A stretch of 32,000 nt of DNA. It comes from Candidatus Hermodarchaeota archaeon (lineage in GTDB: Archaea > Asgardarchaeota > Heimdallarchaeia > Hodarchaeales > Hodarchaeaceae). Of the stretch, positions 213-20,829 are shown one piece after another. Position 1 is the first letter of the stretch. Each line of letters begins with the position of its first letter. A program made the position numbers and the translations under genes. The notes beneath the pieces are model-generated. The model ran no database searches. It had not been told where the DNA came from and saw only the letters and a list, made by a program, of their open reading frames with translations. The DNA lies in NCBI GenBank assembly GCA_048886185.1, contig JBHLKY010000030.1, positions 9,139 through 41,138 on the forward strand, read 5' to 3'.

Positions 213-1169
213 CTAGTTCGCCTTATATTTCAGCAAAGATGTTATTTCAGTTGATATTTCAAGACATACTTGTTCAATAGTAGAATAAGATTCAGAATTT
301 AATCTGAATGTCGATTCTATTCCAATTAATACTAATTTTGTTCCAATATTAACAAGTTGAGTAATCATTAAAAAGTCTTCAATTCGAAGAACATTTGTTT
401 TTGCCTCGGGGGCTATATCAAAAGCCTCATATTGGTCTAGCATCTTGATAATTTGAGGTCCGACTTTCTCTTGCCAACTTTGGTTTTTTCCTATTGCTAA
501 AAGAATCTTATGGCTTGGAGACAATAAAAAAGCTCCAGCGATGCCATATGTCTTCATTTTCTCTTCTAGTCTTTCTTTAATTCGACGTTTATTTACCAGA
601 TCTAGATTTAGTTGTGCTTCCAAAGGTCTATCTTGGGAGAATTTACTAAAATCAGCAGCTTTATTTATTATCTGAGTAAAGATTAGGTTGGTTAATCGTT
701 GTTCATCAGGCCCTTTCAATGAAACAATATAAGATGGGATTTCATTAGGAAAGAATTGTTGAAAGTTTTTGATGACTGTGTCTTTTATTTTGTTTCTTTC
801 AACCTCACTAGTTATTAAATGTCCACGGTTTAGTAAAAGAACAACTCGAAAATTTTTGTTTACACTACTAATATCTGCAGTTATCCTTTGAAAATCCGAT
901 GAGATCTCATCTAAAAGTTGATAGGAGATATCGTGTATGTAAATAAGCGTGTTTATTTTCATTAAGATCTTTTCACGAATAGAAGGAAGTAAGCTAGTAA
1001 TATAAGTCTCTTCTTTCTTTGAATGAGAGGGATTTAACCAATCATAGTAAAAAACGTTCTGTAATATCTTAAGATTTGGTTCTGTCCGTCCTAACTTCAT
1101 CATTTGGCTAAAAAGTAGGTCTTTTCCAGAATGAGATAACCCGGATAATGCGATGAGGTTTTGACGCAA
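213..1169 (-). CDS. Degenerate (pseudo) Rag-like small GTPase with C-terminal roadblock-like domain
   Basis: G1 GLSHSGKD; no DxxG (G3); G4 position NRGH; strand LIYIHDIS aligns with LVFICDIA of the neighbouring Rag. The C-terminal ~125 aa (helix, GIAGAFLLSPSHKILLA, strands, helix) has a roadblock pattern. TTG start with GAGGAG at 1180-1175. Confidence 0.7.
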   Translation of the reverse strand: MRQNLIALSGLSHSGKDLLFSQMMKLGRTEPNLKILQNVFYYDWLNPSHSKKEETYITSLLPSIREKILMKINTLIYIHDISYQLLDEISSDFQRITADISSVNKNFRVVLLLNRGHLITSEVERNKIKDTVIKNFQQFFPNEIPSYIVSLKGPDEQRLTNLIFTQIINKAADFSKFSQDRPLEAQLNLDLVNKRRIKERLEEKMKTYGIAGAFLLSPSHKILLAIGKNQSWQEKVGPQIIKMLDQYEAFDIAPEAKTNVLRIEDFLMITQLVNIGTKLVLIGIESTFRLNSESYSTIEQVCLEISTEITSLLKYKAN

Positions 1170-1179
1170 TGTGACTCCT

Positions 1180-2184
1180 CTAAATTGGTGTTTTGAGCAT
1201 TGATTCTAGCTGCATGGACAGAAGTTTAACAGTTTCTTCAATCTCTGCTAAATTTCTAGTTTCTAACATAGATTTTTCATCACTGGAGACTAGAATTAGT
1301 AAATGATGTGGTTGTAACTTAGATTTGTACATCATTACTGCTCCTAGCCTTTTTAATTCAGATTTCGATCCAGTGATTAATTTTAGATCTTTTGATTTAT
1401 CCAAAAGAGTCAATAGTTGTTGGATTTCACTATCTTCTAACTCGGAGGCATTAATTCTGAAATTGGGATCCTCCAGCGAAATTAGAATGACTTCATCTAA
1501 TCGGTTCATAAATTTAAGAGTGTGAAGTACCTGTTGAATAGGTCGAAGGCGAAGCCTTTGTTTAATCGCTTCTAAGTCTTCCTCTTCTTTCATGCTTTCT
1601 ACTTCAGGAATAACTTCACTAGCTTCTGCTGTTATCCGTTTAAATGCTTCATGGATCGAATTATCATAAATGGATGTTTGCAAAAATGTTATGTTTTTGT
1701 TTGATGCCGCATCTTGAAACATTTCCATAAGAAATTCCATTCGTTCAGCCCGTTGAGTAAGATCGGGCATGAGATCAGTCTTGTGCAGCAGGACATAGAC
1801 AGCAGGTTGTACATCAGACATCTCTTCCAAACGGCTGACACCTTCAACAAAGGCCTTGAGTGAAGCTGGAAATTTATCTGGAGTAGCAATATCACAGATG
1901 AAAACTAAGACCGCAACATTACTGAAGATGAATGAACTCATACTACTCAAAAAACGTTTTAAAAAAACCTCTTGTCCTCCTAAATCCATAACAGTGATGG
2001 GCTCGTCTGCAACCTGCTCAATCTGTCGTTCATAATTTAACGTCGCTGCATAATCCTTGGTTTCCTCTGGTGCCTTACCTTCAAAAACAACGTCACGAAT
2101 GGATGTTTTTCCCGCCTGCGAGAGTCCTAGTAAGATTATCTTCCGTGCGCTCTGCGTTTTCAGCTGTTTCAAGTAATGACTCAT
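1180..2184 (-). CDS. Rag/Gtr-family small GTPase with C-terminal roadblock-like domain
   Basis: G1 GLSQAGKTS, G2 AATL, G3 DLGGQ, G4 HKTD and G5 TSIYD match the RagA/Gtr1-type signatures (HKxD, TSIxD). ~140 aa C-terminal extension. GAGGA upstream of the ATG. Confidence 0.9.
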   Translation of the reverse strand: MSHYLKQLKTQSARKIILLGLSQAGKTSIRDVVFEGKAPEETKDYAATLNYERQIEQVADEPITVMDLGGQEVFLKRFLSSMSSFIFSNVAVLVFICDIATPDKFPASLKAFVEGVSRLEEMSDVQPAVYVLLHKTDLMPDLTQRAERMEFLMEMFQDAASNKNITFLQTSIYDNSIHEAFKRITAEASEVIPEVESMKEEEDLEAIKQRLRLRPIQQVLHTLKFMNRLDEVILISLEDPNFRINASELEDSEIQQLLTLLDKSKDLKLITGSKSELKRLGAVMMYKSKLQPHHLLILVSSDEKSMLETRNLAEIEETVKLLSMQLESMLKTPI

Positions 2185-4272: not shown

Positions 4273-4526
4273 AGCTCTCTTTTCCTTTATGAGGTATTTG
4301 ATTCTGATTAGCCTATTAAGTCAATGTATTGGTTTCGTGAACTTAATATTATCTTCTTCTTGCTTGTTTTATTAAGTTTGCATTACACTTCATAATACAG
4401 TTAAATTTTATCAAAATAAGGAAAATTTAAAATTCTTTGTACCTTAAAGAAAGCAAACGATCTTATTATCCAAATTTTCGCCAAAAAAGTATTAATCATG
4501 TTAATTTTCAAATTGAGGAGTTAAAC

Positions 4527-5429
4527 ATGAAAATTTCACTTGTTGGACTTAGTGGTTGCGGTAAAACATCAATCTATTTCACTACATTGGGTGGGATGGC
4601 TCCTATGGAGACCAGTGATTTCGGGCCGACCATTATGTATGAGGTGAAGTCCCATAATTACTTGGGTCTTCAAATATCCCTGTGGGACTTCGGAGGGCAA
4701 GAAAAATATAGGCAATCGTACCTCGAGACACCTAAACTTCTCGCTAACACCACGGTGTTGGTTTTAGTCCTTGATCTCCATCATCCTGAGGATTTTAAGA
4801 AAGCAGACGATTACTTTAGGCAGGTTTATTCCGCTATTAAAGAAAATGGAGGAGATCCTCGTTTAATAATTTTCTTTCATAAATATGATACAGAGCAATA
4901 TCTTAAGGAACAGCTTGAAGAGAATCTCGACAAAGCTAGAGAATTACCATTTGTCCGAGAACTTAATCCTGAATCCTTTGTTACATCTATTTATAGACAA
5001 GAGGAATTAAGTGAGGTTTTTCGTCAAATCTTGATTTCAGACTTTGATAAATTAAAAAATAGCGTTGAACACGCTCAAAACCAACTCATGAAGCTGAATT
5101 CAAAGATCATTGTGAGTGATGTGAATGGAAATGTTATTACTCATAGTATCAAGGGTTTTTCAACGGGAATCCAGCTTCGTGAAGATTTGCGTGATTATAT
5201 TCTTTCCTGTAATGTATTACGTGAAAATTTCCTCACAAGTGATTCAGCTTCTTTTTCTGCCATTTCTGATTCAAAGACATTAGAATTGCATATTTTTAAT
5301 TTTGTTCTAGCTGTACTCATTATGGTAGATAAAGGGGTAAAAGTTGATCCCCCTGAAGATATCGAAGCTTTGCTAAAAGATATGAAAGTGTTTGCAGAAT
5401 TAATCATTGAAGCTAGTAGAGAAGATTAA
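4527..5429 (+). CDS. Second Rag/Gtr-family small GTPase with C-terminal roadblock-like domain
   Basis: G1 GLSGCGKTS, G2 GPTI, G3 WDFGGQ, G4 HKYD, G5 TSIY, plus C-terminal IIVSDVNGNVI roadblock-like strands. Start moved from the track's 4437 to ATG 4527, which has GAGGAG at 4515-4520 and lies directly before the P-loop strand. Confidence 0.9.
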   Translation: MKISLVGLSGCGKTSIYFTTLGGMAPMETSDFGPTIMYEVKSHNYLGLQISLWDFGGQEKYRQSYLETPKLLANTTVLVLVLDLHHPEDFKKADDYFRQVYSAIKENGGDPRLIIFFHKYDTEQYLKEQLEENLDKARELPFVRELNPESFVTSIYRQEELSEVFRQILISDFDKLKNSVEHAQNQLMKLNSKIIVSDVNGNVITHSIKGFSTGIQLREDLRDYILSCNVLRENFLTSDSASFSAISDSKTLELHIFNFVLAVLIMVDKGVKVDPPEDIEALLKDMKVFAELIIEASRED

Positions 5430-5796: not shown

Positions 5797-6282
5797 TTGA
5801 TTGTTGAAGAAATAGGGAATACAACCCTTCAAAAGATATTTACATCAAAAAAGAGGAGTCGAAGTAGCTTAATCCCAATTTTACAAGACATACAAAGTGA
5901 ATTTGGGTATTTATCTAAAGAAAACATGATTCATATTGGGGAATATATTGGAATGTCATTTAACGAAGTTTATGGGGTTGCTTCATTCTATAAACAATTC
6001 AAATTTGTTAAATCTGGAAAACATATAATAACTGTATGTTTAGGAACAGCTTGCTTTGTAAAGGGCGGTCAAATACTCGCTGAAACTGTAAGAACAAAAT
6101 TAGGTATTAATCCAGATGAAACTACAGAGGATAGGTTATTTAGTTTTGAACGTGTTGCTTGTTTAGGATGTTGTGCCTTATCTCCAGTTGTTCAAATTGA
6201 TGGGGAAGTTTATGGAGAAATGAAACCAGCAAAATTACTTCGAATTATCAATAACATAATTAGGGAAGAAAATAATAAGTAG
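5797..6282 (+). CDS. nuoE: NuoE/HydC-family [2Fe-2S] subunit
   Basis: LIPILQDIQ, EVYGVASFY, CLGTAC and CLGCCALSP motifs. TTG start with GGAGG upstream. Confidence 0.93.
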   Translation: MIVEEIGNTTLQKIFTSKKRSRSSLIPILQDIQSEFGYLSKENMIHIGEYIGMSFNEVYGVASFYKQFKFVKSGKHIITVCLGTACFVKGGQILAETVRTKLGINPDETTEDRLFSFERVACLGCCALSPVVQIDGEVYGEMKPAKLLRIINNIIREENNK

Positions 6283-6293
6283 GTAACTGGATA

Positions 6294-8120
6294 ATGACCA
6301 AAAAAAATTCTTCTCTTAGAACAGTTCTAATTTGCCAAGGAACAGGATGTATCTCATCAAAATCAAATGAGATTAAAGAGGAATTTGAAGAACAGATAAT
6401 TGCGGAGGGTCTAGAAAATGAGGTGAAAGTAGACTTCACTGGTTGTCATGGATTCTGTGCTCAAGGTCCTATTGTGATAATTGAACCAGATGGAATTTTG
6501 TATTGTAAGATTAAAGTGGTAAATGTCAAAAACATTGTTACTTCACATTTGAAAAACATCCGGCCTGTTGAAGAATACTTTTACACCGATCCTAAATCTG
6601 GAAGGAGAATATCAAAGTATAAAGATATTCCTTTTTATAGTAAACAGACACGAATGATTTTAGGTAACTGCGGACACATTAATCCTGAAAATATTGACGA
6701 TTATTTGCACATTGGTGGTTATTCAGGACTTAAACGAGCATTGAAAACCTCTCCCGAAGAGGTTATTCAAATTATTAAAAATTCTGGTTTACGTGGGAGA
6801 GGAGGCGCAGGTTTCCCAACTGGCATGAAATGGGAATTCTGTCGTAATGCACCTGGAAACGAGAAATACATTATTTGTAATGCAGATGAAGGAGATCCTG
6901 GAGCTTTTATGGATCGTTCAATACTTGAAGCAGATCCACACAGCGTTTTAGAAGGAATGATTATCGGAGCATATGCCATTGGCGCTTCTAAAGGCATTAT
7001 CTATGTTCGTGCTGAATATCCTTTAGCAGTTAAGCGTTTTAGATTTGCTCTTGAAACAGCAAGAAAAAATGGATTTCTTGGAGAAAATATTCTAAATAAT
7101 GGATTTTCATTCGATATTTCCGTTCATGAAGGTGCAGGCGCTTTTGTTTGTGGCGAAGAGACAGCATTGATGGCCTCAATAGAAGGAAACAGAGGTAATC
7201 CACGACCTAGGCCACCATTTCCAGCAGAGTCTGGCCTTTGGGGTAAACCCACCAATATCAATAATGTAAAGACATGGGCTTCTACTGCGTGGATTTTTAA
7301 AAATAGTTGGGAGAAGTTTCACGCTATTGGTGTTGAACATGCACCTGGTACAGCGATTTTCTCACTAACAGGGAAAGTTAAGAATTTGGGCTTAATAGAA
7401 GTACCTATGGGTATCAGTATAAGAGAAATCGTCTATGAAATAGGTGGTGGTATTTTAGATGATAAGGAATTTAAAGCTGTTCAGACTGGAGGTCCTTCAG
7501 GTGGATGTTTACCAAAAAGTCATTTAGACTCCCCTGTTGATTATGAAAGCATGGCTACTTCTGGTAGTATTATGGGTTCAGGTGGAATGATTGTTCTTGA
7601 TGAAACTGATTGTATGGTAAAATTAGCTCATTATTTCATAACATTTACACAAGCTGAGTCTTGTGGGAAATGTGTCCCCTGTCGGATCGGAACAAGAGCA
7701 ATGTTGGTTATTCTAGATCGGATTATAAAAGGAGAGGGTGAAGACCGAGACCTCATGCTTTTAGAAGAATTAGCCAATACGGTAAAAATGGGATCATTAT
7801 GTGGGCTTGGCCAAACCGCACCAAATCCCGTATTAACTACATTGAAATATTTTCGTAATGAGTATCAGACCCATATTTTTGAAAAACGTTGTCCTGCTAA
7901 AGATTGTCAAGATCTGATTGAATACGTAATTGATGAAGCTATTTGTAATGGATGTACATTATGTGCCCGCAACTGCCCAATGAAGGTCATCACAGGGATT
8001 AAAGGAGCTACTCACATGATTGATACAAATAGGTGCATTAGATGTGGTATCTGTTTCAAAAGTTGTCCTAGAAACGCAGTGTACAAAAGGGATCGGTATC
8101 CTCAGCAGGTGAAAAGATGA
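6294..8120 (+). CDS. nuoF: NuoF/HydB-family FMN/NADH-binding subunit, long (bifurcating-type) architecture
   Basis: N-terminal [2Fe-2S] domain (CQGTGC, CHGFC); GLRGRGGAGFPTG; NADEGDPGAFMDR; GAGAFVCGEETAL; SCGKCVPCRIG/CGLG; HIFEKRCPAKDC; two C-terminal CxxCxxCxxxC motifs. Confidence 0.95.
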   Translation: MTKKNSSLRTVLICQGTGCISSKSNEIKEEFEEQIIAEGLENEVKVDFTGCHGFCAQGPIVIIEPDGILYCKIKVVNVKNIVTSHLKNIRPVEEYFYTDPKSGRRISKYKDIPFYSKQTRMILGNCGHINPENIDDYLHIGGYSGLKRALKTSPEEVIQIIKNSGLRGRGGAGFPTGMKWEFCRNAPGNEKYIICNADEGDPGAFMDRSILEADPHSVLEGMIIGAYAIGASKGIIYVRAEYPLAVKRFRFALETARKNGFLGENILNNGFSFDISVHEGAGAFVCGEETALMASIEGNRGNPRPRPPFPAESGLWGKPTNINNVKTWASTAWIFKNSWEKFHAIGVEHAPGTAIFSLTGKVKNLGLIEVPMGISIREIVYEIGGGILDDKEFKAVQTGGPSGGCLPKSHLDSPVDYESMATSGSIMGSGGMIVLDETDCMVKLAHYFITFTQAESCGKCVPCRIGTRAMLVILDRIIKGEGEDRDLMLLEELANTVKMGSLCGLGQTAPNPVLTTLKYFRNEYQTHIFEKRCPAKDCQDLIEYVIDEAICNGCTLCARNCPMKVITGIKGATHMIDTNRCIRCGICFKSCPRNAVYKRDRYPQQVKR

Positions 8121-9727
8121 CTAAATGGATGACTATCAACGGAAAACGTGTAGTGTTCGAGGAAGGAGAAACAGTACTCGAAGTTGCAACAAAAGCAGGG
8201 ATATATATCCCCACTCTCTGTGCGAGACCTGATCTTCCTTCAATAGGTGCATGTCGCCTATGTATTGTAGAAGTCGAAGCTGGTCGGGGATTTTCCAATT
8301 CTTGTACTTTACCAGCAAGAGAAGGAATGATTGTCAGAACAGAAACACCTAATATCAGAGCGATAAGACGAAACATTTTCCAATTAATTCTTTCGGAACA
8401 TCCTAGCTCTTGTATTGTATGTAATAATCAGGAGGAGTGTGAGGAAGTCCGTCATGGAGAGTACAAGGCGGGTCGAGTGATTGGTTGTTACACATGCAGT
8501 AATAAGGATCGATGTGAAATCAGAGAGCTGGCCGAATACTTACGAATAAAAGAAATCCGATTTCCAAAGTTGTATAAGAATTTGCCATTAGAACGGGAAG
8601 ATCCATTTCTTGTTCGAGATTATAATCTCTGTATTCTCTGTGCTCGATGTATTAGAGCGTGTCAGAATGTTTTGGGGCATAGTGCTATCACACTCACTAA
8701 ACGAGGTCATGATACAAAAGTAGGAACATTACTAGAAATCCCTCATCTTGAAAGTGGATGTGTATTTTGTGGGCATTGTATAGATGTTTGTCCGACAGGA
8801 GCATTAACTGCTCGAGGATCTAAGTGGTTTGGTACTCCTGATAAGTCAATAGAAACAACATGCGTTTTATGTTCACATAATTGTCAAATGGTCATCGATA
8901 TAAAATGGGATAAAGTTGTAAATGTTCATCCACCTTATGAGATGTCAGCTCGTCGTGAATATTGTGTTAAGGGCCGTTTTTGCATTCCCGCACTAATTAA
9001 CGGCCGAGATCGTCTTCAATATCCAATGATTAAGCGTACAATCATTAAAGAGGAACTCTTTCCTGCATCTTGGGAAGAAGCCATTAATTATGCTGCAGAG
9101 AATTTGAAAAAGTTTAAACCTGAAGAGATAGGTATTTTTATTTCTCCATTTTTAACAGATGAGGCTGTATTCATACTTAACAAGTTCGCTCTACAAGTAA
9201 GCGAGAATAATATTGCTTATGACGACAAAGCACTCCAAGATTTAGCAGCTCAAGGAATCAAATTATTATATGCAACACAAAGATCCAAAGAACTTCTTAA
9301 AATGAAGGATCTAGAATTCTTAATTCTTCAAGATATTTATTATTCTAACTATTGTGAAATAGCAGGGGTTATTTTTCCAATGACAGCTTTTACTGAAGAG
9401 GAAGGCACAAAAACAGGAGATGAATTCATGAGAAATCCAGTTAGACAGGCAGCTGAACCAGTTGGGCTTGCTCTTCCTAGTTGGGATATTACCAATCGTT
9501 TGGCAAAGGCTATGAACTTAGAAGGATTCTCATATAGCTCACTGAACGATGTTCAGGATGATATTGTGAAAGAAGATCCTATTGAAATCCCATTGGTTCC
9601 AAAATCTTCCCTTGAATACTTAGGAATTCCTTTTGTTGAGAAAGTAAAAGATTTTCAAACTTTTTTTAATGCTAAACGACTAATCCATAAAACAAAAGGC
9701 AAAGGTGAGTTCATTGTCAATTTATAA
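8117..9727 (+). CDS. NuoG/FdhA-like Fe-S subunit with truncated molybdopterin domain and no catalytic site
   Basis: PTLC..GACRLCIVEV..SC [2Fe-2S]; HPSSCIVC; CILCARCIRAC; CVFCGHCIDVCPTGAL; TTCVLCSHNC..CVKGRF. Only remnants of the Mo-bisPGD fold follow (ASWEEAI, LILQDIY, VIFPMTAFTEEEGT). No H-cluster motifs. ATGA overlap with the upstream gene. Confidence 0.85.
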   Translation: MTKWMTINGKRVVFEEGETVLEVATKAGIYIPTLCARPDLPSIGACRLCIVEVEAGRGFSNSCTLPAREGMIVRTETPNIRAIRRNIFQLILSEHPSSCIVCNNQEECEEVRHGEYKAGRVIGCYTCSNKDRCEIRELAEYLRIKEIRFPKLYKNLPLEREDPFLVRDYNLCILCARCIRACQNVLGHSAITLTKRGHDTKVGTLLEIPHLESGCVFCGHCIDVCPTGALTARGSKWFGTPDKSIETTCVLCSHNCQMVIDIKWDKVVNVHPPYEMSARREYCVKGRFCIPALINGRDRLQYPMIKRTIIKEELFPASWEEAINYAAENLKKFKPEEIGIFISPFLTDEAVFILNKFALQVSENNIAYDDKALQDLAAQGIKLLYATQRSKELLKMKDLEFLILQDIYYSNYCEIAGVIFPMTAFTEEEGTKTGDEFMRNPVRQAAEPVGLALPSWDITNRLAKAMNLEGFSYSSLNDVQDDIVKEDPIEIPLVPKSSLEYLGIPFVEKVKDFQTFFNAKRLIHKTKGKGEFIVNL

Positions 9728-10601
9728 TATCGTTAAAAAATATGAATGTGTTCCAAACATCCATAAGTTAATCATCTCAGTACCAGAAATAGCTAAAAAG
9801 GCCCAACCAGGGCAATTCGTACTCGTAATGGTAGATGAGAAATCTGAGAGAATTCCATTAACAATTGCTGATTGGGATGTGACTACAGGAACTATTACAT
9901 TATTTGTTCAAGAAGTTGGATTGTCTACAACAAAATTTGCTTTTATGGAAGAAGGAGATTCATTTTTTAGTATTGTGGGCCCCTTAGGAAAACCTGCCTA
10001 CCTGGATAAATTTGGAACTGTAGTATTGGGAGGTGGTTGTTTTGGGATTGGAGCTATCTATTCAATAGCTAAAAAGCTCAAGAAATTGGAAAATTACGTT
10101 ATCACTATAATTGAGGCAAGAAATGACTGGCTTTTGTATTTTGAGGATGAATTTCAATCTATAAGTGATGAAGTTATCGTGACAACTAGTGATGGGTCAA
10201 AAGGATCAAAAGGGTATATCTATGATGTTCTTGACAATATGATTACAGAAGGACGGGAAATTGATCATATAAAAGTTATTGGATGTAATGTCATGATGAG
10301 TAAGGTTTCAGCCCTCACTAAAGAAAAAGGTTCCATTCCAACCTATGCAACTGTCTCAGCAATTATGGTGGATGGTACTGGGATGTGTGGAGCTTGTCGT
10401 TTGACATATGATGGAAAAACAAAATTTGCATGCGTGGATGGCCCAGAGTTCAATGCACACAAAATTGATTGGGAGGAACTAATACAAATCCGAAATACAA
10501 CTTATATTCAGGAGGAAACCCTTGCTTTCCAAACTCATTCCCCACAATGTCTATCTCTAAAGAGATTTGCAGAAATAAAAGATGAAGAGGAATTATTTTG
10601 A
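9705..10601 (+). CDS. nfnA: Nfn small subunit (NfnA/SudB, PyrK-like FAD/[2Fe-2S] protein)
   Basis: AQPGQFV, ERIPLTIAD, GPLGKP, MVDGTGMCGACR, CVDGPEF. The true start may be TTG 9714, with GGTGA 5' of it. Confidence 0.93.
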   Translation: MSSLSIYNIVKKYECVPNIHKLIISVPEIAKKAQPGQFVLVMVDEKSERIPLTIADWDVTTGTITLFVQEVGLSTTKFAFMEEGDSFFSIVGPLGKPAYLDKFGTVVLGGGCFGIGAIYSIAKKLKKLENYVITIIEARNDWLLYFEDEFQSISDEVIVTTSDGSKGSKGYIYDVLDNMITEGREIDHIKVIGCNVMMSKVSALTKEKGSIPTYATVSAIMVDGTGMCGACRLTYDGKTKFACVDGPEFNAHKIDWEELIQIRNTTYIQEETLAFQTHSPQCLSLKRFAEIKDEEELF

Positions 10602-12331
10602 AGGCAAAGGAAAGAATGCAAATTTCTAGGGTGTCTATGCCAAGTCAACCTCCAGAGGTACGTGTTAAGAACTTCCGTGAGGTTCCTTATGGTTACACAG
10701 AAGAAATGGCTGTAGAAGAAGCCAACCGTTGTCTTGGATGTAAAACACCAAAATGTATCGAGGGGTGTCCTGTTCGTGTACCAATTCCAGAGTTTATCAC
10801 ATTAATACAAGAAAGAAAGTTTGCAGAAGCAGCATGGAAAATTAAAGAAACAAATGTCCTCCCAGCAATATGTGGACGTGTATGTCCTCAAGAGGCACAA
10901 TGTGAGGGAAAGTGTGTTCGTACGAAAAAGGGCGAATCTGTTGCTGTTGGTAACCTTGAACGATTTGTTGCTGATTATGAACGGTTAAAAGATATTGTTC
11001 CTAAAATAAATATCGTGCAAAAAAATGGGAAAAAAGTGGCAGTTATAGGGAGTGGTCCCTCGGGGTTGACTGTTGCAGGAGATTTAATAAAATTAGGATA
11101 TGAGGTAATCATTTTTGAAGCGTTTCACCTTGGTGGTGGCGTTCTTGTTTATGGAATTCCGGAATTTCGTTTACCTAAAGCAGTTGTGGAATATGAGATA
11201 CAGAATCTTAGCAAACTAGGAGTACAAATCTCTTATAATCATGTAGTTGGCCGTATTAAAACCATTGGGGAACTATTTGCTAATGATGATTTTGATGCTG
11301 TTTATATTGGTGTTGGAGCTGGTTTACCAGTTTTTATGAATATTCCAGGGGAAAACCTTATTGGGGTCTATTCTGCCAATGAATATCTTACACGCTCAAA
11401 TTTAATGAAATCATATCTTTTCCCCGAGTATAATACTCCTTTAGTAAGTGGAAAAGATGTTGTGGTCGTGGGTGGAGGGAATACTGCAATGGATGCTTCT
11501 AGAACCGCTATACGATTAGGGGCAGCTAATGTTTACCTTGTCTATCGTCGCTCAAGAGAACAGATGCCTGCGCGAACATTGGAGGTACATCACGCTGAAG
11601 AAGAGGGAATTCAATTCAAACTTTTATCTAATCCTGTTGAGATCATTGGTGACGAAAAAGGTCGAGTTAAAGCAGTTACTTGTCAAAGATATCGTCTTGG
11701 AGAACCAGATAAATCTGGAAGAGCTCGTCCTATACCAATAGAAGGTGAGTTCTTTGAGCTAAAAACTGATTTAGTCATTATAGCTGTCGGAACGGGGGCG
11801 AATCCTCTAATCACAGCCACAACACCAGATCTAGAAACTAATAAGTGGGGGTATCTCGTAGCAGACGAGATGGGCCGTACTAGTAAACCATTTGTATATG
11901 CAGGTGGCGACATTGTTACAGGAACAGCAACTGTAATTTCAGCAATGGGGGCGGGTCGTCGAGCAGCTCAAGCAATACATGAGGATCTCTTTCCAGTGGT
12001 CAAGGAAGAACCCGAAAGAATTCGAATAGTTTCCGAGATTATACAAGTAAAAGAAGCCATAATACATCCTGAATCTACAACAATGAAAATTATATTAGCC
12101 AATACATCAGGAAGAGATCTCAAGAATCTAAAAATTGTTGTTTCACATCTCTTTGATTTGTTTGAAGAACCCTTATTTAATACATCTGTCTCAAGCTGGC
12201 CATCAAATGAAGAGCTGGAACTTGATTGTCCCCGAATTCATAAAAATGAAAAAGAATATCTTTTATCCATAAGAGATTTAGACAGAAAATTGTTATCAAA
12301 GCGACTTGTTGCTGAAGAACTAATGAAGTAA
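10598..12331 (+). CDS. nfnB: Nfn large subunit (NfnB/SudA, GltD-like) with an extra ~110 aa C-terminal domain
   Basis: CLGCKTPKCIEGCPV, CGRVCPQEAQCEGKC, GSGPSGL, YGIPEFRLP, GGGNTAMD, YRRS, YAGGDIVTG. The core ends near AAQAIHEDL (~11990) and is followed by the extension. TTGA overlap with nfnA. Confidence 0.93.
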   Translation: MKAKERMQISRVSMPSQPPEVRVKNFREVPYGYTEEMAVEEANRCLGCKTPKCIEGCPVRVPIPEFITLIQERKFAEAAWKIKETNVLPAICGRVCPQEAQCEGKCVRTKKGESVAVGNLERFVADYERLKDIVPKINIVQKNGKKVAVIGSGPSGLTVAGDLIKLGYEVIIFEAFHLGGGVLVYGIPEFRLPKAVVEYEIQNLSKLGVQISYNHVVGRIKTIGELFANDDFDAVYIGVGAGLPVFMNIPGENLIGVYSANEYLTRSNLMKSYLFPEYNTPLVSGKDVVVVGGGNTAMDASRTAIRLGAANVYLVYRRSREQMPARTLEVHHAEEEGIQFKLLSNPVEIIGDEKGRVKAVTCQRYRLGEPDKSGRARPIPIEGEFFELKTDLVIIAVGTGANPLITATTPDLETNKWGYLVADEMGRTSKPFVYAGGDIVTGTATVISAMGAGRRAAQAIHEDLFPVVKEEPERIRIVSEIIQVKEAIIHPESTTMKIILANTSGRDLKNLKIVVSHLFDLFEEPLFNTSVSSWPSNEELELDCPRIHKNEKEYLLSIRDLDRKLLSKRLVAEELMK

Positions 12332-12454
12332 GTAATACAAGTTGGTTATTAGTGGTTATAAGGGAAACTGTTTAGAGACAACCGATGACTTTAATTTATT
12401 TTGATCTTTTTTGCCACTTATAGATAGAATGTTTGAATCATTTATTTTAGTTAC

Positions 12455-12874
12455 TTAATCTTCTTTTGATTTTAGTGAGAGGGATTCTAAGGAGTTGAAA
12501 GCGGCTAAAATATCGTAGGATGTTATTATCCCTACCAAATTATTGCTAACGGGATTTATTACAGGAATTCTTTTTATTCTATATTTAGACATTAGCTTTA
12601 ACGCGTCTTTAACGGTTTCTTCTGAAGAAATTGTAATAAGGTTTTTTGTTGCAATGTCCCCTGCTTTGACTGTACAAGGATCATTACAATTTAGCACAAC
12701 TCTTGCGATAATATTTTGTTTTGTTATTATTCCAAGATTTTTTTGATCTTTATAAACCAACACTGAACCTACTTTTTTTTCGACCATTAATTGAGCTACC
12801 TTCTCAACACTTTCATTGGGATTAACAGCTACAATCTCTTTCGTCATAAAATCTTTTACTTTAGTTCTATTCAC
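12455..12874 (-). CDS. Stand-alone CBS-pair protein
   Basis: VKDFMTKEIVAVNP..SVEKVAQLM..VGSVLV..GIIT and AGDIATKNLITI..ALKLM..IKRIPVI..GIITSYDI. GTG start 11 nt after the upstream stop. Confidence 0.92.
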   Translation of the reverse strand: MNRTKVKDFMTKEIVAVNPNESVEKVAQLMVEKKVGSVLVYKDQKNLGIITKQNIIARVVLNCNDPCTVKAGDIATKNLITISSEETVKDALKLMSKYRIKRIPVINPVSNNLVGIITSYDILAAFNSLESLSLKSKED

Positions 12875-12885
12875 GACATAACTTC

Positions 12886-13914
12886 CTATCCTTGAATTCT
12901 TTTTAGCATTATTGTTTCATTTTCGTCTTCAATTTTAAGGAAATAGATCATACCAGTTCCTTCAGAGGGTTCAAATTCAAAGGAAATGATTTCTTTTGGG
13001 GCCCATTTTCTTATTTCTGAAATAAGGACATCTTTTCCGAAAAATCCATGTGATTCATATATTTTGAGAAGAACATTTTCTAAAATGGTTGAACTAATGT
13101 TACGAACTGTGATACGAATGATTTTTTTGTCTTTAGGGGATTCAACTTGAATAATTTTTACACGTTTTGGTTCTGGTTTTAAGATTTCCTCTTTTTTACT
13201 ATCTGAAATCTCCTGTTGTTTTATTGTAGGTATTAAAAATCTTAATTTTTCTGGCCTTTTAGGTACTGAAGGGATACTAGGTTTCTGAAATTGATAGCTT
13301 TCTGAATTTGGTTTTTGCTCCAGTTCATTTTCTTTTAATTGTGCTTTAAGCTTTGTAATGGGGATTTTCGGAATTAAAGAATGATATTTACTCTCAAGGA
13401 GTTCTCTGATGTGTTTAGACCTTTCTATGACTTCTGGCTCTTTACTTTCCTCAAGTATATCTTCAATGAGGAAACGCAATCTTAAACTGACGTGATAATT
13501 TTCGAGGGTTATTTTAAATTGGTACAATATTTCCTGAGCGATAAAAGAAACCGATGAAGGGGCCTTGACGATCAAAATAAATCTATCAAGTTGCCATTTG
13601 GCAGATTCCATTCCTGAGCGTCTTTTAATTCTACGTGTTTCACAAAAAGATATTGTAGCACAGTAAATAACATCTCCTATCTCAAGATCGATGCTGGTAA
13701 ACTTATCTGTATCTAGGAATTTTTCCTGGTGCCACCATACTGGATGAATGGATAATATTTGTTTTTCATTTTCATCGGTCAATAATTCTTCTGGATATCC
13801 AAATAGTGGGACATGGCCTCTAATTTCGTCAAAAAAATAGAGAAAGAATCCATACGAATTGTCGCTGGCTAAAGAAACAATATTTTTTGTTGAGGGGATA
13901 TCCCCGTTACTCAT
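12886..13914 (-). CDS. Longin/uDENN-like protein 1 with C-terminal shared domain
   Basis: N-terminal GFFLYFFDEIRGHVPLFGYP fits the uDENN/longin start pattern (FDxxxG..YP). A Pro/Lys/Glu-rich linker precedes a C-terminal beta-rich domain. Paralogous to 14394..15341. Confidence 0.7.
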   Translation of the reverse strand: MSNGDIPSTKNIVSLASDNSYGFFLYFFDEIRGHVPLFGYPEELLTDENEKQILSIHPVWWHQEKFLDTDKFTSIDLEIGDVIYCATISFCETRRIKRRSGMESAKWQLDRFILIVKAPSSVSFIAQEILYQFKITLENYHVSLRLRFLIEDILEESKEPEVIERSKHIRELLESKYHSLIPKIPITKLKAQLKENELEQKPNSESYQFQKPSIPSVPKRPEKLRFLIPTIKQQEISDSKKEEILKPEPKRVKIIQVESPKDKKIIRITVRNISSTILENVLLKIYESHGFFGKDVLISEIRKWAPKEIISFEFEPSEGTGMIYFLKIEDENETIMLKRIQG

Positions 13915-13947
13915 GACTACGCCTTTCTCCTTTATTCTAAAATCTAA

Positions 13948-14151
13948 TCAATCTAAGCTGATTTTAAAGGATTTCTCTCTATTTATCACATTTACACAAA
14001 ATTTCGATTTTAATCTTTTTTGTTTTTCATGAGAGATTATGGAGAAATCATCCGACAATAATATGGGAGTTAATGAAAAAGGGATCTGATGACAATAATC
14101 AGGTAAGATTGACAATAAAAGCTCTTTTATTTGCTTATTGTCTAAAATCAA
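13948..14151 (-). CDS. Possible small hypothetical protein (67 aa)
   Basis: ORF on the same strand between the two longin-like genes, ending 33 nt before the next start. No motif and no convincing SD. Confidence 0.3.
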   Translation of the reverse strand: MILDNKQIKELLLSILPDYCHQIPFSLTPILLSDDFSIISHEKQKRLKSKFCVNVINREKSFKISLD

Positions 14152-14393
14152 CCCCTTTTTTAATCCTTTTCTACATAAAAGGCATATAATGATTTAATAG
14201 TCTTCTATAATGCTAGAGAAATATTTTTCATTTCTTCAGAGTAAAATTACGACAAAAAGGGGTAACCTCTTTACTCTATTAAACGTTTTTTCAAACAATT
14301 TCTAGTATCATATCTTGATCATTAAAGGAACTTCAAACAATGCAAAGAATATAAATTTCTAAAGATGATTTTATCATTGGAGATATACTTAAA

Positions 14394-15341
14394 TTAACTA
14401 GCATTAGTAGAAGCAATCTCAAGGGACTTTATGTCTATTGTTGTATTTCTACTAGTAATCTTTATCAAATACTTCCCAATTACGTCAGATTTGGAAAATT
14501 CTAGGATTATATCTTCTTTTAAAGGCCATTCTTCAAGTTTATGCTCCCAAATAGTTTCACTAAAAAACTCTGTTCTTCTTGACACATGAATCCTTATATC
14601 ATATAAATTTTCACTCTGATTAATTAATACTACCATTAATCTATTCTTATTTTCCTCTGTTGGTAAGACTCTCATGGTTATTTTTTGCTTAAACAAATCC
14701 TGAGCACAAAGACTTGTCTCTACTGGAATCATGGAGGAATTGACTCGACTTGGTATTATCTCTGTGCTAAAAGGCTCTATATTTTTATTAATTCCATAAA
14801 CAAATTTTTTCCAAATATTTTTAAGGGACAATTCGATTTCTACGGCTTTTTTTAGTAATTCATCGTGTTCTCGTTTTTTGATCGGATTTAATGCCAATTT
14901 TTCTCGTTGATATAATATCTCAAGATCTGAACCAATATCCGAATTTATTGTTGTTTTTAAATCAACAAATGCTTTAACGGGTATAGGATCACTATCTTTC
15001 CATTTTTTGATGACGATTCCATAGAGAGGGTGATCAATTGTTGACAACGATCCCTCTTGGGAATCTTCTTGAAGCTGAATAGCTGAGTAAACAAATTCTG
15101 AAAATTTTAAATCAATTCGAAAAGGAACATTTTCAATTTTCCACACACAATGAGTTTTTAGAATATTAATTTCATTTTGATTTTTTTTCAATTTTGATGG
15201 GTATGAAAAGAGGATACGAAGGCCATGAGTAGTATCAAAAGAACACAAAAAAAATCCTATTAGGCCAACTTTTGAGTCAAAAGTTTGCTTATCGGTTGCA
15301 GGTTCAATATCAGTATCAAATACGGGATCGATATTCATCAT
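14394..15341 (-). CDS. Longin/uDENN-like protein 2 with C-terminal shared domain
   Basis: GFFLCSFDTTHGLRILFSYP..NE..IL..H.VW..IDL..Y.A aligns with protein 1, and the C-terminal domain is also homologous. AGGAG upstream of the ATG. Confidence 0.7.
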   Translation of the reverse strand: MMNIDPVFDTDIEPATDKQTFDSKVGLIGFFLCSFDTTHGLRILFSYPSKLKKNQNEINILKTHCVWKIENVPFRIDLKFSEFVYSAIQLQEDSQEGSLSTIDHPLYGIVIKKWKDSDPIPVKAFVDLKTTINSDIGSDLEILYQREKLALNPIKKREHDELLKKAVEIELSLKNIWKKFVYGINKNIEPFSTEIIPSRVNSSMIPVETSLCAQDLFKQKITMRVLPTEENKNRLMVVLINQSENLYDIRIHVSRRTEFFSETIWEHKLEEWPLKEDIILEFSKSDVIGKYLIKITSRNTTIDIKSLEIASTNAS

Positions 15342-15704
15342 TTCTCCTTATGTTTCTAATTTATTGAAAAGAAATAATCCTTTTGAAATAGTTTACTCTC
15401 GTAAGTGTTAAACCTTTTCCACTTCAAAAGTTTTATTAAATAGTTTAAAAGCATGTTTAATAACGTAACAAGATTTTTAGTGACCATCTGATATTTTTAA
15501 TGTGGTTTTACAGCTCAACTATAGAAAAATCTATTTAATTATCGATAAAAACCTACTATTGTAGCATAGTAACACTATTTTTCCCCAAAACTACTACAGA
15601 AAATCCATTATCCTATGAAACAAAATTTTTTAGTATATTCTCATTTACTCACATCAGTAGAAACAATTCATCAAATAACTTTGGAACGTTTGGAGAAGAA
15701 CATT

Positions 15705-19073: not shown

Positions 19074-19571
19074 GTGGTGTTAATGAAAAATAAATGGCGA
19101 GTAATGCCCAAACGTGTAGGAAGGAGTCGAAAAATTCAAGTTAGGCAGTTTGAACCAGAAGAAATATGGATAGAATATGAACTAGATGTTGAAGATGCTT
19201 CATTAGCGAATGATGCTGTTCGAGAAGCAACTAAATTAGCAATTGCTTATCTAAATGAGGAGGAGGCCAAATTACGAGGTAAAAAATTTCCAAGGGAAGA
19301 GAAAATGGAAGAAAAACCTTTTATTGAATATTATCTTAAAATAACTGATGAAGGGAAGAACCTTGGTAATTTTCGTATAAAGCCATCAGATGACCCACAA
19401 TTCGCAAATTTCATACATTTATGGTTAGAAAAGGATCAACAAGAGTTTTATGTAGGTTTTTTACGCAAAGATACTGGAGAGTTCAAATTCAAGTCGAAAA
19501 ACAAAGAATTAATCCAAAAATATGGGATCAAGAAAGACCAACATTTTCAAATTGTTGAGTCTAAAAATTGA
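19074..19571 (+). CDS. Hypothetical protein, apparently two small domains
   Basis: Open 165-aa frame with protein-like composition. Start uncertain. No family recognised. Confidence 0.65.
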   Translation: MVLMKNKWRVMPKRVGRSRKIQVRQFEPEEIWIEYELDVEDASLANDAVREATKLAIAYLNEEEAKLRGKKFPREEKMEEKPFIEYYLKITDEGKNLGNFRIKPSDDPQFANFIHLWLEKDQQEFYVGFLRKDTGEFKFKSKNKELIQKYGIKKDQHFQIVESKN

Positions 19572-20094: not shown

Positions 20095-20829
20095 TCATTC
20101 TTGAAATCCAGAGTCTCTTTCGAGAATTAAATGTGCTTTTTTGATAAGATAATAACCACAGATAAAGTAACTTATTAAAAAGATGAATAGATTGCTTATA
20201 ATGCCTAAATTGAAAGGTATATATGATCCTTGAAAATTAATATTAATAAGGATCCAATTAAAATCAATTAATTCATCAAAAAAGTACAAAATCATAAAAA
20301 CACTGGCAAAAAAAATTAGAATTAATCCCAAATAAAGGATTTCTTTAAAGTTTTTGAATTCCACAATTTTTTTTAGAAAATAATACGAGATTAGGCAACC
20401 TAAACCTCCACTCCATAAATAATTGACTGTAAATTGAGAAAAAGGAGTTAATATTAAGGCAGAGGGAAAAACGTACATGAAAAATAATGCAAAACCCAGA
20501 AAAGCATACCGATGAAAATGTAGTCCATTTTCGTCAATGGTTGTCTTTTTGACAGAAAAATATGTTAAAATCGTGAGAAAAAAGCATAATAATAGAGGAA
20601 TAATAGTGGAGAATAGAAGTAAATAATAATAAAGATTTAAATTCCCAATGATTCGCAATGCCTTAAAGGGATCAGTAGGTTCATAAAAGAGGATATATTG
20701 TAAAATTGCAGCAATAAAATTAGTAACACCAATTATTATTATCATAAATCCCAATGATTTTCTTATTTGATATTCTTCAAATTGATACAAGAGTTGAAAA
20801 CCTTTAGTTACTTCTTCAATATCTGGCAT
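20095..20829 (-). CDS. Integral membrane protein (about 6 TM) upstream of the wHTH gene
   Basis: Multiple long hydrophobic segments. Its stop lies 19 nt before the regulator's start, suggesting an operon. Confidence 0.8.
   Translation of the reverse strand: MPDIEEVTKGFQLLYQFEEYQIRKSLGFMIIIIGVTNFIAAILQYILFYEPTDPFKALRIIGNLNLYYYLLLFSTIIPLLLCFFLTILTYFSVKKTTIDENGLHFHRYAFLGFALFFMYVFPSALILTPFSQFTVNYLWSGGLGCLISYYFLKKIVEFKNFKEILYLGLILIFFASVFMILYFFDELIDFNWILININFQGSYIPFNLGIISNLFIFLISYFICGYYLIKKAHLILERDSGFQE

What the first reader, a model, noticed from the sequence alone, without database searches (positions are those of the whole stretch)
12886..15341. Paralogous longin/uDENN pair with an Arg-rich loop in only one member, suggesting a GAP-like heterodimer
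Seen: the N-domains align (GFFL..FD...G...LF.YP..L....NE..IL..H.VW..IDL......Y.A). Between the predicted last two strands, protein 1 has ETRRIKRRSG (Arg run at 13618-13635) while protein 2 has no Arg (LQEDSQEGSLSTIDHP). Established: Rag/Arf GAPs (NPRL2-NPRL3, FLCN-FNIP, SMCR8-C9orf72) are longin heterodimers in which one partner supplies an arginine finger from the beta4-beta5 loop. Inference: an archaeal equivalent that may act on the Rag-like GTPases encoded ~8-12 kb away.
Basis: partly seen in the sequence, partly recalled or inferred. Interest (0 to 1): 0.8.

Follow-up and report, generated by a model that had tools for sequence, protein, structure and literature searches.

The report
Asgard longin pair beside Rag GTPase
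Two neighbouring sister genes of a Hodarchaeales (Asgard) archaeon encode longin-fold proteins, only one of which keeps a strictly conserved arginine loop; they belong to a gene module kept across Asgard archaea with a Rag-like GTPase, CBS sensor proteins and a redox enzyme, so they are a credible but untested off-switch for that GTPase.

Summary

- The pair is not detectably homologous to FLCN, NPRL2 or SMCR8 and has no DENN domain. The heterodimer model gives only weak support, and GAP activity is untested.
In relatives the pair sits about 2 kb from one particular Rag ortholog, and CBS / longin-bS / FrhB-bS / Rag recurs in 8 further Asgard families.
- The same bS domain ends the neighbouring redox enzyme (NfnB-like here, FrhB-like elsewhere). 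First readers of this scan noted this on the same stretch, and I verified it.
- An independent tandem duplication in another family also produced a copy with a degraded loop.

Asgard GAP-type longins are already published, but I found no description of this family or module. The genome also encodes a separate folliculin-type longin protein as a rival GAP candidate.

The parts
12886..13914 (-). P1 (P0001, 342 aa): longin domain, helical hairpin, disordered linker and C-terminal beta-sandwich (bS). This is the Arg-loop-bearing paralog.
13591..13638 (-). P1 b4-b5 loop (residues 93-108) holding T-R-R-I-K-R-R-S-G-M. R95, R99 and G101 are invariant. This is the candidate arginine finger.
   Evidence: Alignment A1. 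Strand limits from the model. The motif S-x-R-[KE]-K-x-R-[AS]-G is kept in distant Asgard members.
13813..13830 (-). P1 b1-b2 hairpin D29-E30-x-x-G33-H34, invariant. It occupies the position of the 'GP motif' of eukaryotic GAP longins.
   Evidence: The GP motif is described in PMC12290439. Its spatial proximity to the Arg loop is inferred from longin topology and was not measured.
12889..13176 (-). P1 C-terminal beta-sandwich domain (bS), residues about 247-342.
   Evidence: Model strands 252-341. Ig-like matches. HMM hits. Atlas structural match to a cluster of FrhB-like Asgard proteins, TM 0.78 over 91 residues.
14394..15341 (-). P2 (P0002, 315 aa; probably 314 aa starting at 15338): same architecture as P1, with an acidic, variable b4-b5 loop.
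15027..15074 (-). P2 loop equivalent to the P1 Arg loop (residues 90-105, LQEDSQEGSLSTIDHP). It has no conserved Arg and low model confidence.
14412..14696 (-). P2 C-terminal bS domain.
12455..12874 (-). CBS-pair protein (139 aa), 11 bp downstream of P1 on the same strand. Probable operon partner.
   Evidence: Pfam CBS, E 2.6e-30. It follows P1 in every relative examined. It is fused to P1-type proteins in other Asgard lineages (P0144, L047, L048).
10598..12331 (+). NfnB/GltD-like oxidoreductase (577 aa) with an extra C-terminal bS domain at about 12041-12304.
   Evidence: Pfam domains end at residue 453. bS HMM hits have genome-wide E 1.3e-6 and 3.1e-9, and this is one of only three bS proteins in the genome.
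5797..10601 (+). NuoE/NuoF/NuoG-like and NfnA-like genes forming one redox operon with the bS-tagged NfnB-like gene. This block takes the place that FrhB-bS holds in other genomes.
   Evidence: Pfam. Comparison with L004-L009.
4437..5429 (+). The 'module' Rag/Gtr-like GTPase with a C-terminal extension. Its ortholog sits next to the bS-tagged redox enzyme across Asgard, making it the predicted client of P1/P2.
   Evidence: Pfam Gtr1_RagA, E 1.4e-20. Motifs GCGKT, DFGGQ and HKYD. Orthologs at E 1e-107 to 1e-129 in other families.
213..2184 (-). Two further adjacent Rag-like genes: 1180-2184 is strong, and 213-1169 is weak and possibly degenerate. They are alternative clients.
   Evidence: Pfam. 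The same arrangement occurs in L004-L006.

Best explanation
P1 and P2 belong to an Asgard-specific family of longin-domain regulators of a Rag-like GTPase.

Shown:
- Both have a longin fold, a helical hairpin and a C-terminal Ig-like beta-sandwich (bS).
- They are full-length paralogs.
- P1 carries a strictly conserved basic loop (R95-x-K97-x-R99-x-G101) in the b4-b5 hairpin, next in the fold topology to the invariant D-E-x-x-G-H b1-b2 hairpin. P2 has lost both features.
- The genes sit in a module conserved across Asgard families. It contains CBS-pair proteins, one particular Rag ortholog and a redox enzyme that ends in the same bS domain.

Inferred:
- P1 and P2 pair through their longin domains to form a platform that cups the Rag G-domain. 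P1 inserts an arginine (R95 or R99) into the nucleotide pocket and stimulates GTP hydrolysis, as FLCN-FNIP, NPRL2-NPRL3 and SMCR8-C9orf72 do.
- Lineages with only the P1-type gene would use a homodimer.
- The shared bS domain brings the longin proteins and the redox enzyme (and, in other lineages, an arrestin/Vps26-like protein) to a common partner or to each other.
- The CBS proteins supply an adenine-nucleotide input.
- The module would then couple redox or energy state to the Rag switch.
For: - Loop conservation. R95, R99 and G101 are invariant in 42 orthologs. The motif is kept in P1-type proteins of about ten Asgard families.
- Recurrent asymmetry. The P2-type clade is split from the P1-type clade with support 100/98. 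A second, independent tandem duplication inside family f20 (support 99/97) produced copies that lost R99, G101 and H34 in 4 of 5 cases.
- Linkage in the own group. P2-P1-CBS-redox(bS)-Rag is present in all 7 loci of this group.
- Linkage elsewhere. In 10 of 11 loci from 8 other families, longin-bS lies within 10 kb of a Rag ortholog.
- Fusions. P1-type proteins are fused to four CBS domains (P0144, L047, L048). A longin N-domain is fused to an Lrp/AsnC ligand-binding domain (P0157).
- bS distribution. Only three proteins in the 4.84 Mb genome carry bS, and all three are in this locus.
- Heterodimer model of the N-domains. ipSAE median was 0.42 against a best control of 0.00. That mark was reached by 58 of 80 solved complexes and 2 of 110 mismatched pairs. 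At 0.60 or under, only 7 of those 80 solved complexes and both mismatches reached it, so the tool's verdict is 'weak support'. The runs agree in at least 58% of contacts and the partner pLDDT is at least 76.
- Mechanistic precedent. One longin subunit supplies the finger in SMCR8, FLCN and NPRL2 (PMC8213707; PMC9473554).
Against: - No sequence homology to FLCN, NPRL2 or SMCR8 by any search.
- The GP motif is G-H or G-L here.
- The loop is long and carries several basic residues. It could bind something other than a nucleotide, and its residue-level equivalence to FLCN Arg164 was not established. The only alignment that pairs R95 with the ARG motif of the genome's folliculin-type protein is non-significant.
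- The module Rag has its own DxxGQ glutamine.
- The genome has a separate Pfam-Folliculin protein beside a roadblock gene, which could be the real Rag GAP.
- Gene order across the 20 kb around the pair is conserved within the order, so synteny within the order carries little weight.
- In the large family f20, longin-bS is not next to FrhB-bS or the module Rag.
- In this genome P2 and P1 are 479 bp apart and may be transcribed separately.
Confidence: 0.45

Rival explanations
1. P1/P2 form a longin platform that binds the Rag-like GTPase but acts as an exchange factor, an anchor or a scaffold rather than a GAP. Mon1-Ccz1, BLOC-3, CPLANE, TRAPP and Ragulator work this way. The basic loop would serve binding or membrane attachment.
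Against: The fixed spacing R-x-K-x-R-x-G, invariant over about ten families, and its loss in independently arisen second copies fit a catalytic element supplied by one subunit. Its position next to the b1-b2 hairpin mirrors the GAP longin pocket described in PMC12290439.
Confidence: 0.25
2. P1/P2 are regulatory or assembly subunits of the bS-tagged redox enzyme (NfnB-like or FrhB-like). They would be joined to it through the shared bS domain and tuned by the CBS protein. The Rag would be an upstream switch or merely a neighbour, and the basic loop would bind a cofactor, a nucleotide or the CBS protein.
For: bS is shared only by P1, P2 and the redox enzyme in this genome. FrhB-bS accompanies longin-bS in 10 of 11 loci from 8 further families. 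CBS fusions exist. The Atlas structural match links bS to a cluster of 299 FrhB-like Asgard proteins.
Against: I know of no case of a longin domain regulating an oxidoreductase. The Rag ortholog is as constant a neighbour as the redox enzyme. In family f20, longin-bS persists without FrhB-bS nearby.
Confidence: 0.17
3. P1/P2 are membrane-traffic-type adaptors, like SNARE longins or the small and medium adaptor subunits (a longin followed by a beta-sandwich). They would have no direct action on a GTPase.
For: Sec22 and VAMP7 longins and the AP sigma and mu subunits are among the top structural matches. The layout of a longin followed by a beta-sandwich loosely recalls the mu subunits (2xa7_M and 1w63_M, aligned over 188-203 residues but with rmsd above 16 A).
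Against: There is no SNARE motif, no transmembrane segment and no other adaptor subunit in the conserved module. The matches to mu subunits have very high rmsd. The module constants are a Rag, CBS proteins and a redox enzyme.
Confidence: 0.08

Closest known systems
Eukaryotic longin-domain GAP heterodimers: FLCN-FNIP1/2 (Lst7-Lst4), NPRL2-NPRL3 of GATOR1/SEACIT, and SMCR8-C9orf72
   Different: No detectable sequence homology. The C-terminal part is a helical hairpin plus an Ig-like beta-sandwich, not a DENN domain or the NPRL2/3 C-terminal domains. The motif reads G-H or G-L instead of G-P. The loop is longer and has two invariant Arg residues. The partners are CBS proteins and a redox enzyme rather than DEPDC5, WDR41 or Ragulator. 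Activity is untested.
Asgard 'FLCN/SMCR8-type' and 'NPRL2-like' longin proteins (PMC12290439, Traffic 2025; Liu et al., bioRxiv 10.1101/2020.10.19.343400)
   Same: Asgard longins proposed as possible GAPs for Rag or Arf-related GTPases on the basis of an Arg finger plus a neighbouring Gly motif. They are present in Heimdall-group genomes.
   Different: Those proteins are recognised by folliculin or NPRL2 models. This genome has one, P0139 (PF11704, 27.8 bits; FDEEHGP and ARG motifs), beside a roadblock gene. P1/P2 match no such model and do not align with that family. The bS domain, the CBS/redox/Rag module and the catalytic/non-catalytic pair are not mentioned in the passages I read. The sequence list of the Traffic paper is not held, so overlap cannot be fully excluded.
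Longin GEF complexes (Mon1-Ccz1, BLOC-3/Hps1-Hps4, CPLANE Fuzzy-Inturned, TRAPP core)
   Different: They promote exchange rather than hydrolysis and have no arginine finger. They are multi-longin or multi-subunit assemblies.
MglB (roadblock) with MglA, the bacterial roadblock GAP
   Same: A prokaryotic dimeric platform of the roadblock/longin superfamily that regulates a Ras-like GTPase encoded nearby.

Membership tests
Longin domain fold (roadblock/longin superfamily) | Five-stranded antiparallel sheet in the order b-b-a-b-b-b-a(-a) | tested here: met
Longin-domain GAP complexes (FLCN-FNIP, NPRL2-NPRL3, SMCR8-C9orf72) | Sequence membership in the Folliculin, NPR2/NPR3 or SMCR8/C9orf72 families | tested here: not met
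   No Pfam or NCBIfam hit at E up to 10. No PDB sequence hit. PF11704 and PF06218 searches of the genome do not hit this locus. hhalign to the Heimdall folliculin-type family gives probability 1.7% or less.
Longin-domain GAP complexes | Conserved arginine finger in a longin loop of one subunit only | tested here: inconclusive
   An invariant R95/R99 lies in the b4-b5 loop of P1 only. Residue-level superposition on FLCN Arg164, NPRL2 Arg78 or SMCR8 Arg147 was not possible with these tools.
Longin-domain GAP complexes | GP motif at the b1-b2 loop of the catalytic longin (PMC12290439) | tested here: not met
   P1 has an invariant G33-H34 (G-Q in some lineages) and P2 has G40-L41. The Gly is kept but the Pro is not.
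Longin-domain GAP complexes | Heterodimer through the two longin domains | tested here: inconclusive
   ipSAE 0.42 against a best control of 0.00. The tool rates this as 'weak support'.
Longin-domain GAP complexes | C-terminal DENN domain (FLCN, FNIP, SMCR8, C9orf72) or NPRL2/3-specific C-terminal domains | tested here: not met
   The C-terminal part is a helical hairpin, a disordered linker and an Ig-like beta-sandwich.
Longin-domain GAP complexes | Stimulates GTP hydrolysis by a Rag/Arf-family GTPase | not testable with these tools
   Needs purified proteins and GTPase assays.
DENN/uDENN proteins | uDENN longin followed by core DENN and dDENN | tested here: not met

The most novel reading that the evidence does not exclude
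An Asgard-wide Rag-GTPase signalling module in which one small beta-sandwich 'tag' gathers three kinds of protein around a single Rag ortholog, together with CBS nucleotide sensors. The three are a longin-type GAP (P1, with a non-catalytic sister P2 in some lineages), an arrestin/Vps26-like protein, and an F420- or NAD(P)H-linked redox enzyme. This would be a prokaryotic forerunner of Rag/GATOR/folliculin nutrient sensing that reads redox or energy state rather than amino acids. It would have evolved a catalytic/non-catalytic longin heterodimer at least twice.
Probability: 0.3. Interest if true: 0.9.

Novelty: new variant of a known kind. Interest (0 to 1): 0.72.

Why it matters
How the Rag, GATOR and folliculin branch of eukaryotic nutrient signalling arose is an open question. 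Asgard genomes hold many Rag-like GTPases and many longins, but published work notes that clients and regulators can rarely be matched from gene order (PMC10933270).

This family is an exception.
- One longin family with a conserved arginine loop, one specific Rag ortholog, CBS sensors and a redox enzyme travel together across Asgard lineages.
- They share a private docking-type domain.
- That gives a defined, small set of soluble proteins with which to test whether archaeal longins are Rag GAPs and what signal they read.
- The repeated origin of an active/inactive pair offers a natural experiment on how the asymmetric eukaryotic GAP heterodimers evolved.

Tried and rejected
- Pfam and NCBIfam scans of P1 and P2 returned nothing at E up to 10.
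- PDB sequence profile searches returned nothing for P1 and only chance picornavirus VP3 hits for P2.
- Foldseek on the whole models was dominated by the Ig-like C-domain (PDE6D, UNC119, FlaG, glycosidase FnIII domains). I treat the PDE6D/UNC119 resemblance as generic Ig-fold similarity, not as evidence of GTPase binding.
- hhalign of both families against the genome's folliculin-type protein was not significant, either as a single sequence or as a 22-sequence alignment.
- The NPR2 family search of the genome found no match.
- I tested whether the roughly 390-aa bS protein next to the Rag in other lineages is a divergent P2. It is not: only its bS domain aligns, and its N-part resembles arrestin/Vps26 by Atlas features, which is a lead only.
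- Rfam found nothing in 12300-15700, including the 479-bp P2-P1 spacer.
- The supplement of the Traffic paper with its 15 Asgard longin sequences is not held, so direct overlap could not be checked.
- I considered a dual-finger (Arg plus His/Gln) mechanism like that of TBC RabGAPs, because of the invariant G-[HQ]. I did not pursue it because the module Rag keeps its own DxxGQ.
Full report
**What is there.**
The stretch holds two genes on the minus strand. P1 is at 12886-13914 (342 aa) and P2 at 14394-15341 (315 aa, probably 314 aa starting at 15338). They are separated by a 479-bp AT-rich spacer with no Rfam match. A CBS-pair gene follows P1 after 11 bp on the same strand (12455-12874).

**Paralogy.**
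BLASTP aligns the N-termini (49% identity over 39 aa, E 9e-9) and the C-termini (33% over 51 aa, E 1e-4). Each protein has 60-70 orthologs in Hodarchaeales/Heimdall-group assemblies. All are annotated as hypothetical, and their locus tags are consecutive in at least a dozen assemblies. Profile-profile comparison of the two ortholog alignments gives probability 99.2%, E 3.5e-19, over 280 columns. The proteins are therefore paralogous over their whole length.

**Fold.**
AlphaFold2 models built on these alignments have mean pLDDT 73.6 and 75.6. Both show the same layout: b-b-a-b-b-b followed by long helices, a disordered linker, and a seven-stranded beta-sandwich.

An exhaustive structural comparison matches the N-domains to longin domains.
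- For P2: a chain of FLCN-FNIP2-Rag-Ragulator 10.9, GATOR1 10.4, Sec22 10.3, a Lokiarchaeal roadblock-longin protein 9.9, C9orf72-SMCR8 9.3.

GEF-type longins (BLOC-3, CPLANE, Mon1-Ccz1, TRAPP) and adaptor sigma and mu subunits score within about 1.5 Z units of these. The fold is clearly longin, but it does not say GAP rather than GEF or adaptor. The C-domain is a generic Ig-like sandwich.

**The asymmetric loop.**
ETRRIKRRSG is residues 92-101 of P1. It lies between model strands b4 (82-92) and b5 (109-119). R95, R99, G101, M102 and W107 are invariant and K97 is nearly so among 42 orthologs of 41-54% identity. The corresponding P2 loop is acidic, variable and modelled with low confidence.

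The b1-b2 hairpin is also invariant: D-E-x-x-G-H in P1 and D-x-x-x-G-L in P2. Published work describes a 'GP motif' at exactly this hairpin, next to the arginine finger, as the hallmark of eukaryotic GAP longins and of some heimdallarchaeial longins (PMC12290439). In a longin sheet (strand order 2-1-5-4-3) the b1-b2 and b4-b5 hairpins emerge side by side. This is an inference from topology, because I could not inspect the model coordinates.

**Not a recognisable folliculin/NPRL2 relative.**
- Pfam, NCBIfam and PDB-sequence profile searches are empty.
- A profile of both N-domains searched against 1.84 billion representative proteins found only 56 relatives. Of the 24 whose sequences I read, all but one weak, probably spurious hit are this longin (+ beta-sandwich) architecture or fusions of it, and the named ones are Asgard. 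None was shown to be a folliculin/NPRL2 relative.
- The genome does encode a true Pfam-Folliculin protein elsewhere (P0139, 437 aa, with FDEEHGP and ARG motifs) beside a roadblock gene. It also has weaker folliculin-type matches inside two giant ORFs.
- Neither P1 nor P2 aligns with that family, even profile against profile.
- The only alignment that pairs P1 R95 with that family's ARG arginine is non-significant.

**Genomic context.**
This is the strongest new evidence. In six loci from other genomes of the same group the order is [two Nfn-like genes] P2, P1, CBS, [FrhB-like or NuoEFG/Nfn-like redox block], Rag-like GTPase, MFS transporter, and then further Rag-like genes. Where the redox block is a single FrhB-like gene, the pair is only about 2 kb from the Rag. 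The 7-10 kb distance in this window is due to a larger redox operon. Because the whole 20 kb is collinear within the group, I looked further afield.

The family occurs in 161 of 400 Asgard genomes sampled.
- It is present in 18 of 21 genomes of the own genus.
- It is absent from the roughly 90 other genomes of the same class.
- It is present in all sampled genomes of six other families and in 120 of 135 genomes of a large family (f20).

I fetched 26 loci and annotated them with HMMs built here.
- In 10 of 11 loci from eight further families, the longin gene lies within 10 kb of an FrhB-like gene. The same holds for a Rag ortholog (E 1e-61 to 1e-129 against a model of the module Rag).
- The typical order on one strand is CBS, longin, double-CBS, FrhB-like, Rag, plus a protein of about 390 aa.
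- Two assembly loci from other lineages show the same pattern.
- In three lineages the P1-type protein is fused to four CBS domains. In one, a longin N-domain is fused to an Lrp/AsnC ligand-binding domain.
- In f20 the longin gene stands without FrhB or the module Rag nearby.

**A shared private domain.**
Full-length profiles of P1 and P2 also hit the neighbouring redox enzymes. The match is to a C-terminal extension of about 90 aa that Pfam leaves unannotated.
- In this window the carrier is the NfnB/GltD-like protein (10598-12331, extension at about 12041-12304). In other genomes it is the FrhB-like protein.
- In the whole 4.84 Mb genome only three proteins carry this beta-sandwich, and all three are in this locus. 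Only two carry the longin N-domain.
- The ESM Atlas structural search independently links the P1 sandwich to a cluster of 299 FrhB-like Asgard proteins (TM 0.78 over 91 residues).
- The roughly 390-aa protein next to the Rag in other lineages ends in the same domain. Its N-part resembles arrestin/Vps26 by language-model features, which is a lead only.
- First-stage notes of this scan had already pointed out the shared domain on this same stretch. I confirm it here and extend it to other lineages.

**Evolution of the asymmetry.**
P1-type proteins from all lineages keep F-D-E-x-x-G-[HQ] and S-x-R-[KE]-K-x-R-[AS]-G-[LM]. In a maximum-likelihood tree, the P2-type proteins form one clade separated from all P1-type proteins (support 100/98). 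This clade holds the own group plus three relatives from other assemblies. Within f20, the second copies of tandem pairs form their own clade (99/97), which indicates an independent duplication. Four of those five copies have lost R99 and G101, and all five have replaced the His. The root is unknown and the P2 branches are long, so the order of events is not settled. Two separate origins of an 'intact plus degraded' pair are nevertheless what one expects if the loop is a functional element needed in only one subunit of a dimer.

**Heterodimer test.**
A complex prediction of the two N-domains gave ipSAE 0.51, 0.39 and 0.42, against 0.00 for three controls. The tool classes this as weak support. 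The mark was reached by 58 of 80 solved complexes and 2 of 110 mismatched pairs. At 0.60 or under, only 7 of those 80 solved complexes and both mismatches reached it. The runs agree in at least 58% of contacts and the partner pLDDT is at least 76. Likeness to solved longin dimers could contribute to the score.

**Reading.**
The most likely account (about 0.45) is that P1, with P2 where it exists, is a longin-platform regulator of the neighbouring Rag ortholog (4437-5429 in this window; motifs GCGKT, DFGGQ, HKYD). It would act as a GAP through R95 or R99, in the manner shown structurally for SMCR8 and FLCN (PMC8213707, PMC9473554).

The rivals are:
- a GEF or scaffold role for the same platform (0.25);
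- a role as regulatory subunits of the bS-tagged redox enzyme (0.17);
- a trafficking-adaptor role (0.08).

The genome's separate folliculin-type protein is a competing GAP candidate for the Rags.

**Novelty.**
That Asgard archaea have GAP-like longins with an arginine finger is published (PMC12290439; Liu et al., bioRxiv 10.1101/2020.10.19.343400). Other follow-ups in this scan have met folliculin-type and NPRL2-like examples. In the held literature I found no description of this family, its beta-sandwich tag, the CBS/redox/Rag module or the twice-evolved asymmetric pair. I therefore class it as a new variant of a known kind.

Noticed in passing
G000:C6:92774-95968 (L001:625-1938, minus strand): The same genome encodes a 437-aa protein (P0139) that passes the Pfam Folliculin cut-off. 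It carries FDEEHGP and DDPEARGRNR motifs. A roadblock/LC7-like gene (P0140) lies two genes upstream. About 74 orthologs occur in Hodarchaeales/Heimdall assemblies. This is probably the class of Asgard GAP-type longin already published.
   Followed up: partly
G000:C13:6409-6672 and 11083-11277 (L002, L003): Weak Folliculin-family matches (19 bits, below the cut-off) lie inside two very long open frames of 3793 and 1565 aa. Other follow-ups in this scan describe folliculin-like tails on giant surface proteins of Hodarchaeales.
   Followed up: no
L045:13761-14918, L044:3073-4248, L046:4703-5914, L048:4865-6049, L061:16923-18098, L062:2739-3893, L010:12528-13688: In non-Hodarchaeales Asgard lineages a protein of about 390 aa sits next to the module Rag. 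It ends in the same beta-sandwich domain. Its N-part resembles arrestin/Vps26/Spo0M by Atlas language-model features (score 0.91), with no Pfam hit.
   Followed up: partly
P0144; L047:9178-11112; L048:8780-10711: Natural fusions of the P1-type protein (longin, beta-sandwich, intact Arg motif) with four CBS domains. One source labels its organism Helarchaeota.
   Followed up: partly
P0157 (297 aa, metagenome): A longin N-domain of this family with an intact Arg motif is fused to an Lrp/AsnC ligand-binding domain (PF01037, E 8.8e-9) in place of the beta-sandwich. Such domains usually bind amino acids.
   Followed up: no
window 213-2184 (minus strand): Two Rag-like genes lie 10 bp apart on one strand. 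The first (1180-2184) is a strong Gtr1/RagA match. The second (213-1169) only just misses the cut-off (21.6 against 22 bits) and may be a degenerate partner, recalling Rag heterodimers.
   Followed up: no
window 13915-14393: The P2-P1 spacer is 479 bp here, against about 110 bp (20 bp in one case, 560 bp in another) in relatives. It is AT-rich, has no Rfam match and holds only a 67-aa ORF of doubtful reality. P1 may have its own promoter in this genome.
   Followed up: partly
P0017 / P0094 (KPK88146.1, KPK88147.1): One ortholog pair is deposited under 'Bacteroides sp. SM23_62_1'. Given the family's strictly Asgard distribution, that 55-kb contig is probably mis-binned.
   Followed up: no
window 19074-19571, 20095-20829, 23139-24119, 2380-2727: Four further conserved ORFs in the syntenic block have no Pfam match. 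A first-reader note counts a third longin-like protein in the window. The HMM of the P1/P2 N-domain finds only two in the genome, so any third would belong to a different longin class.
   Followed up: partly
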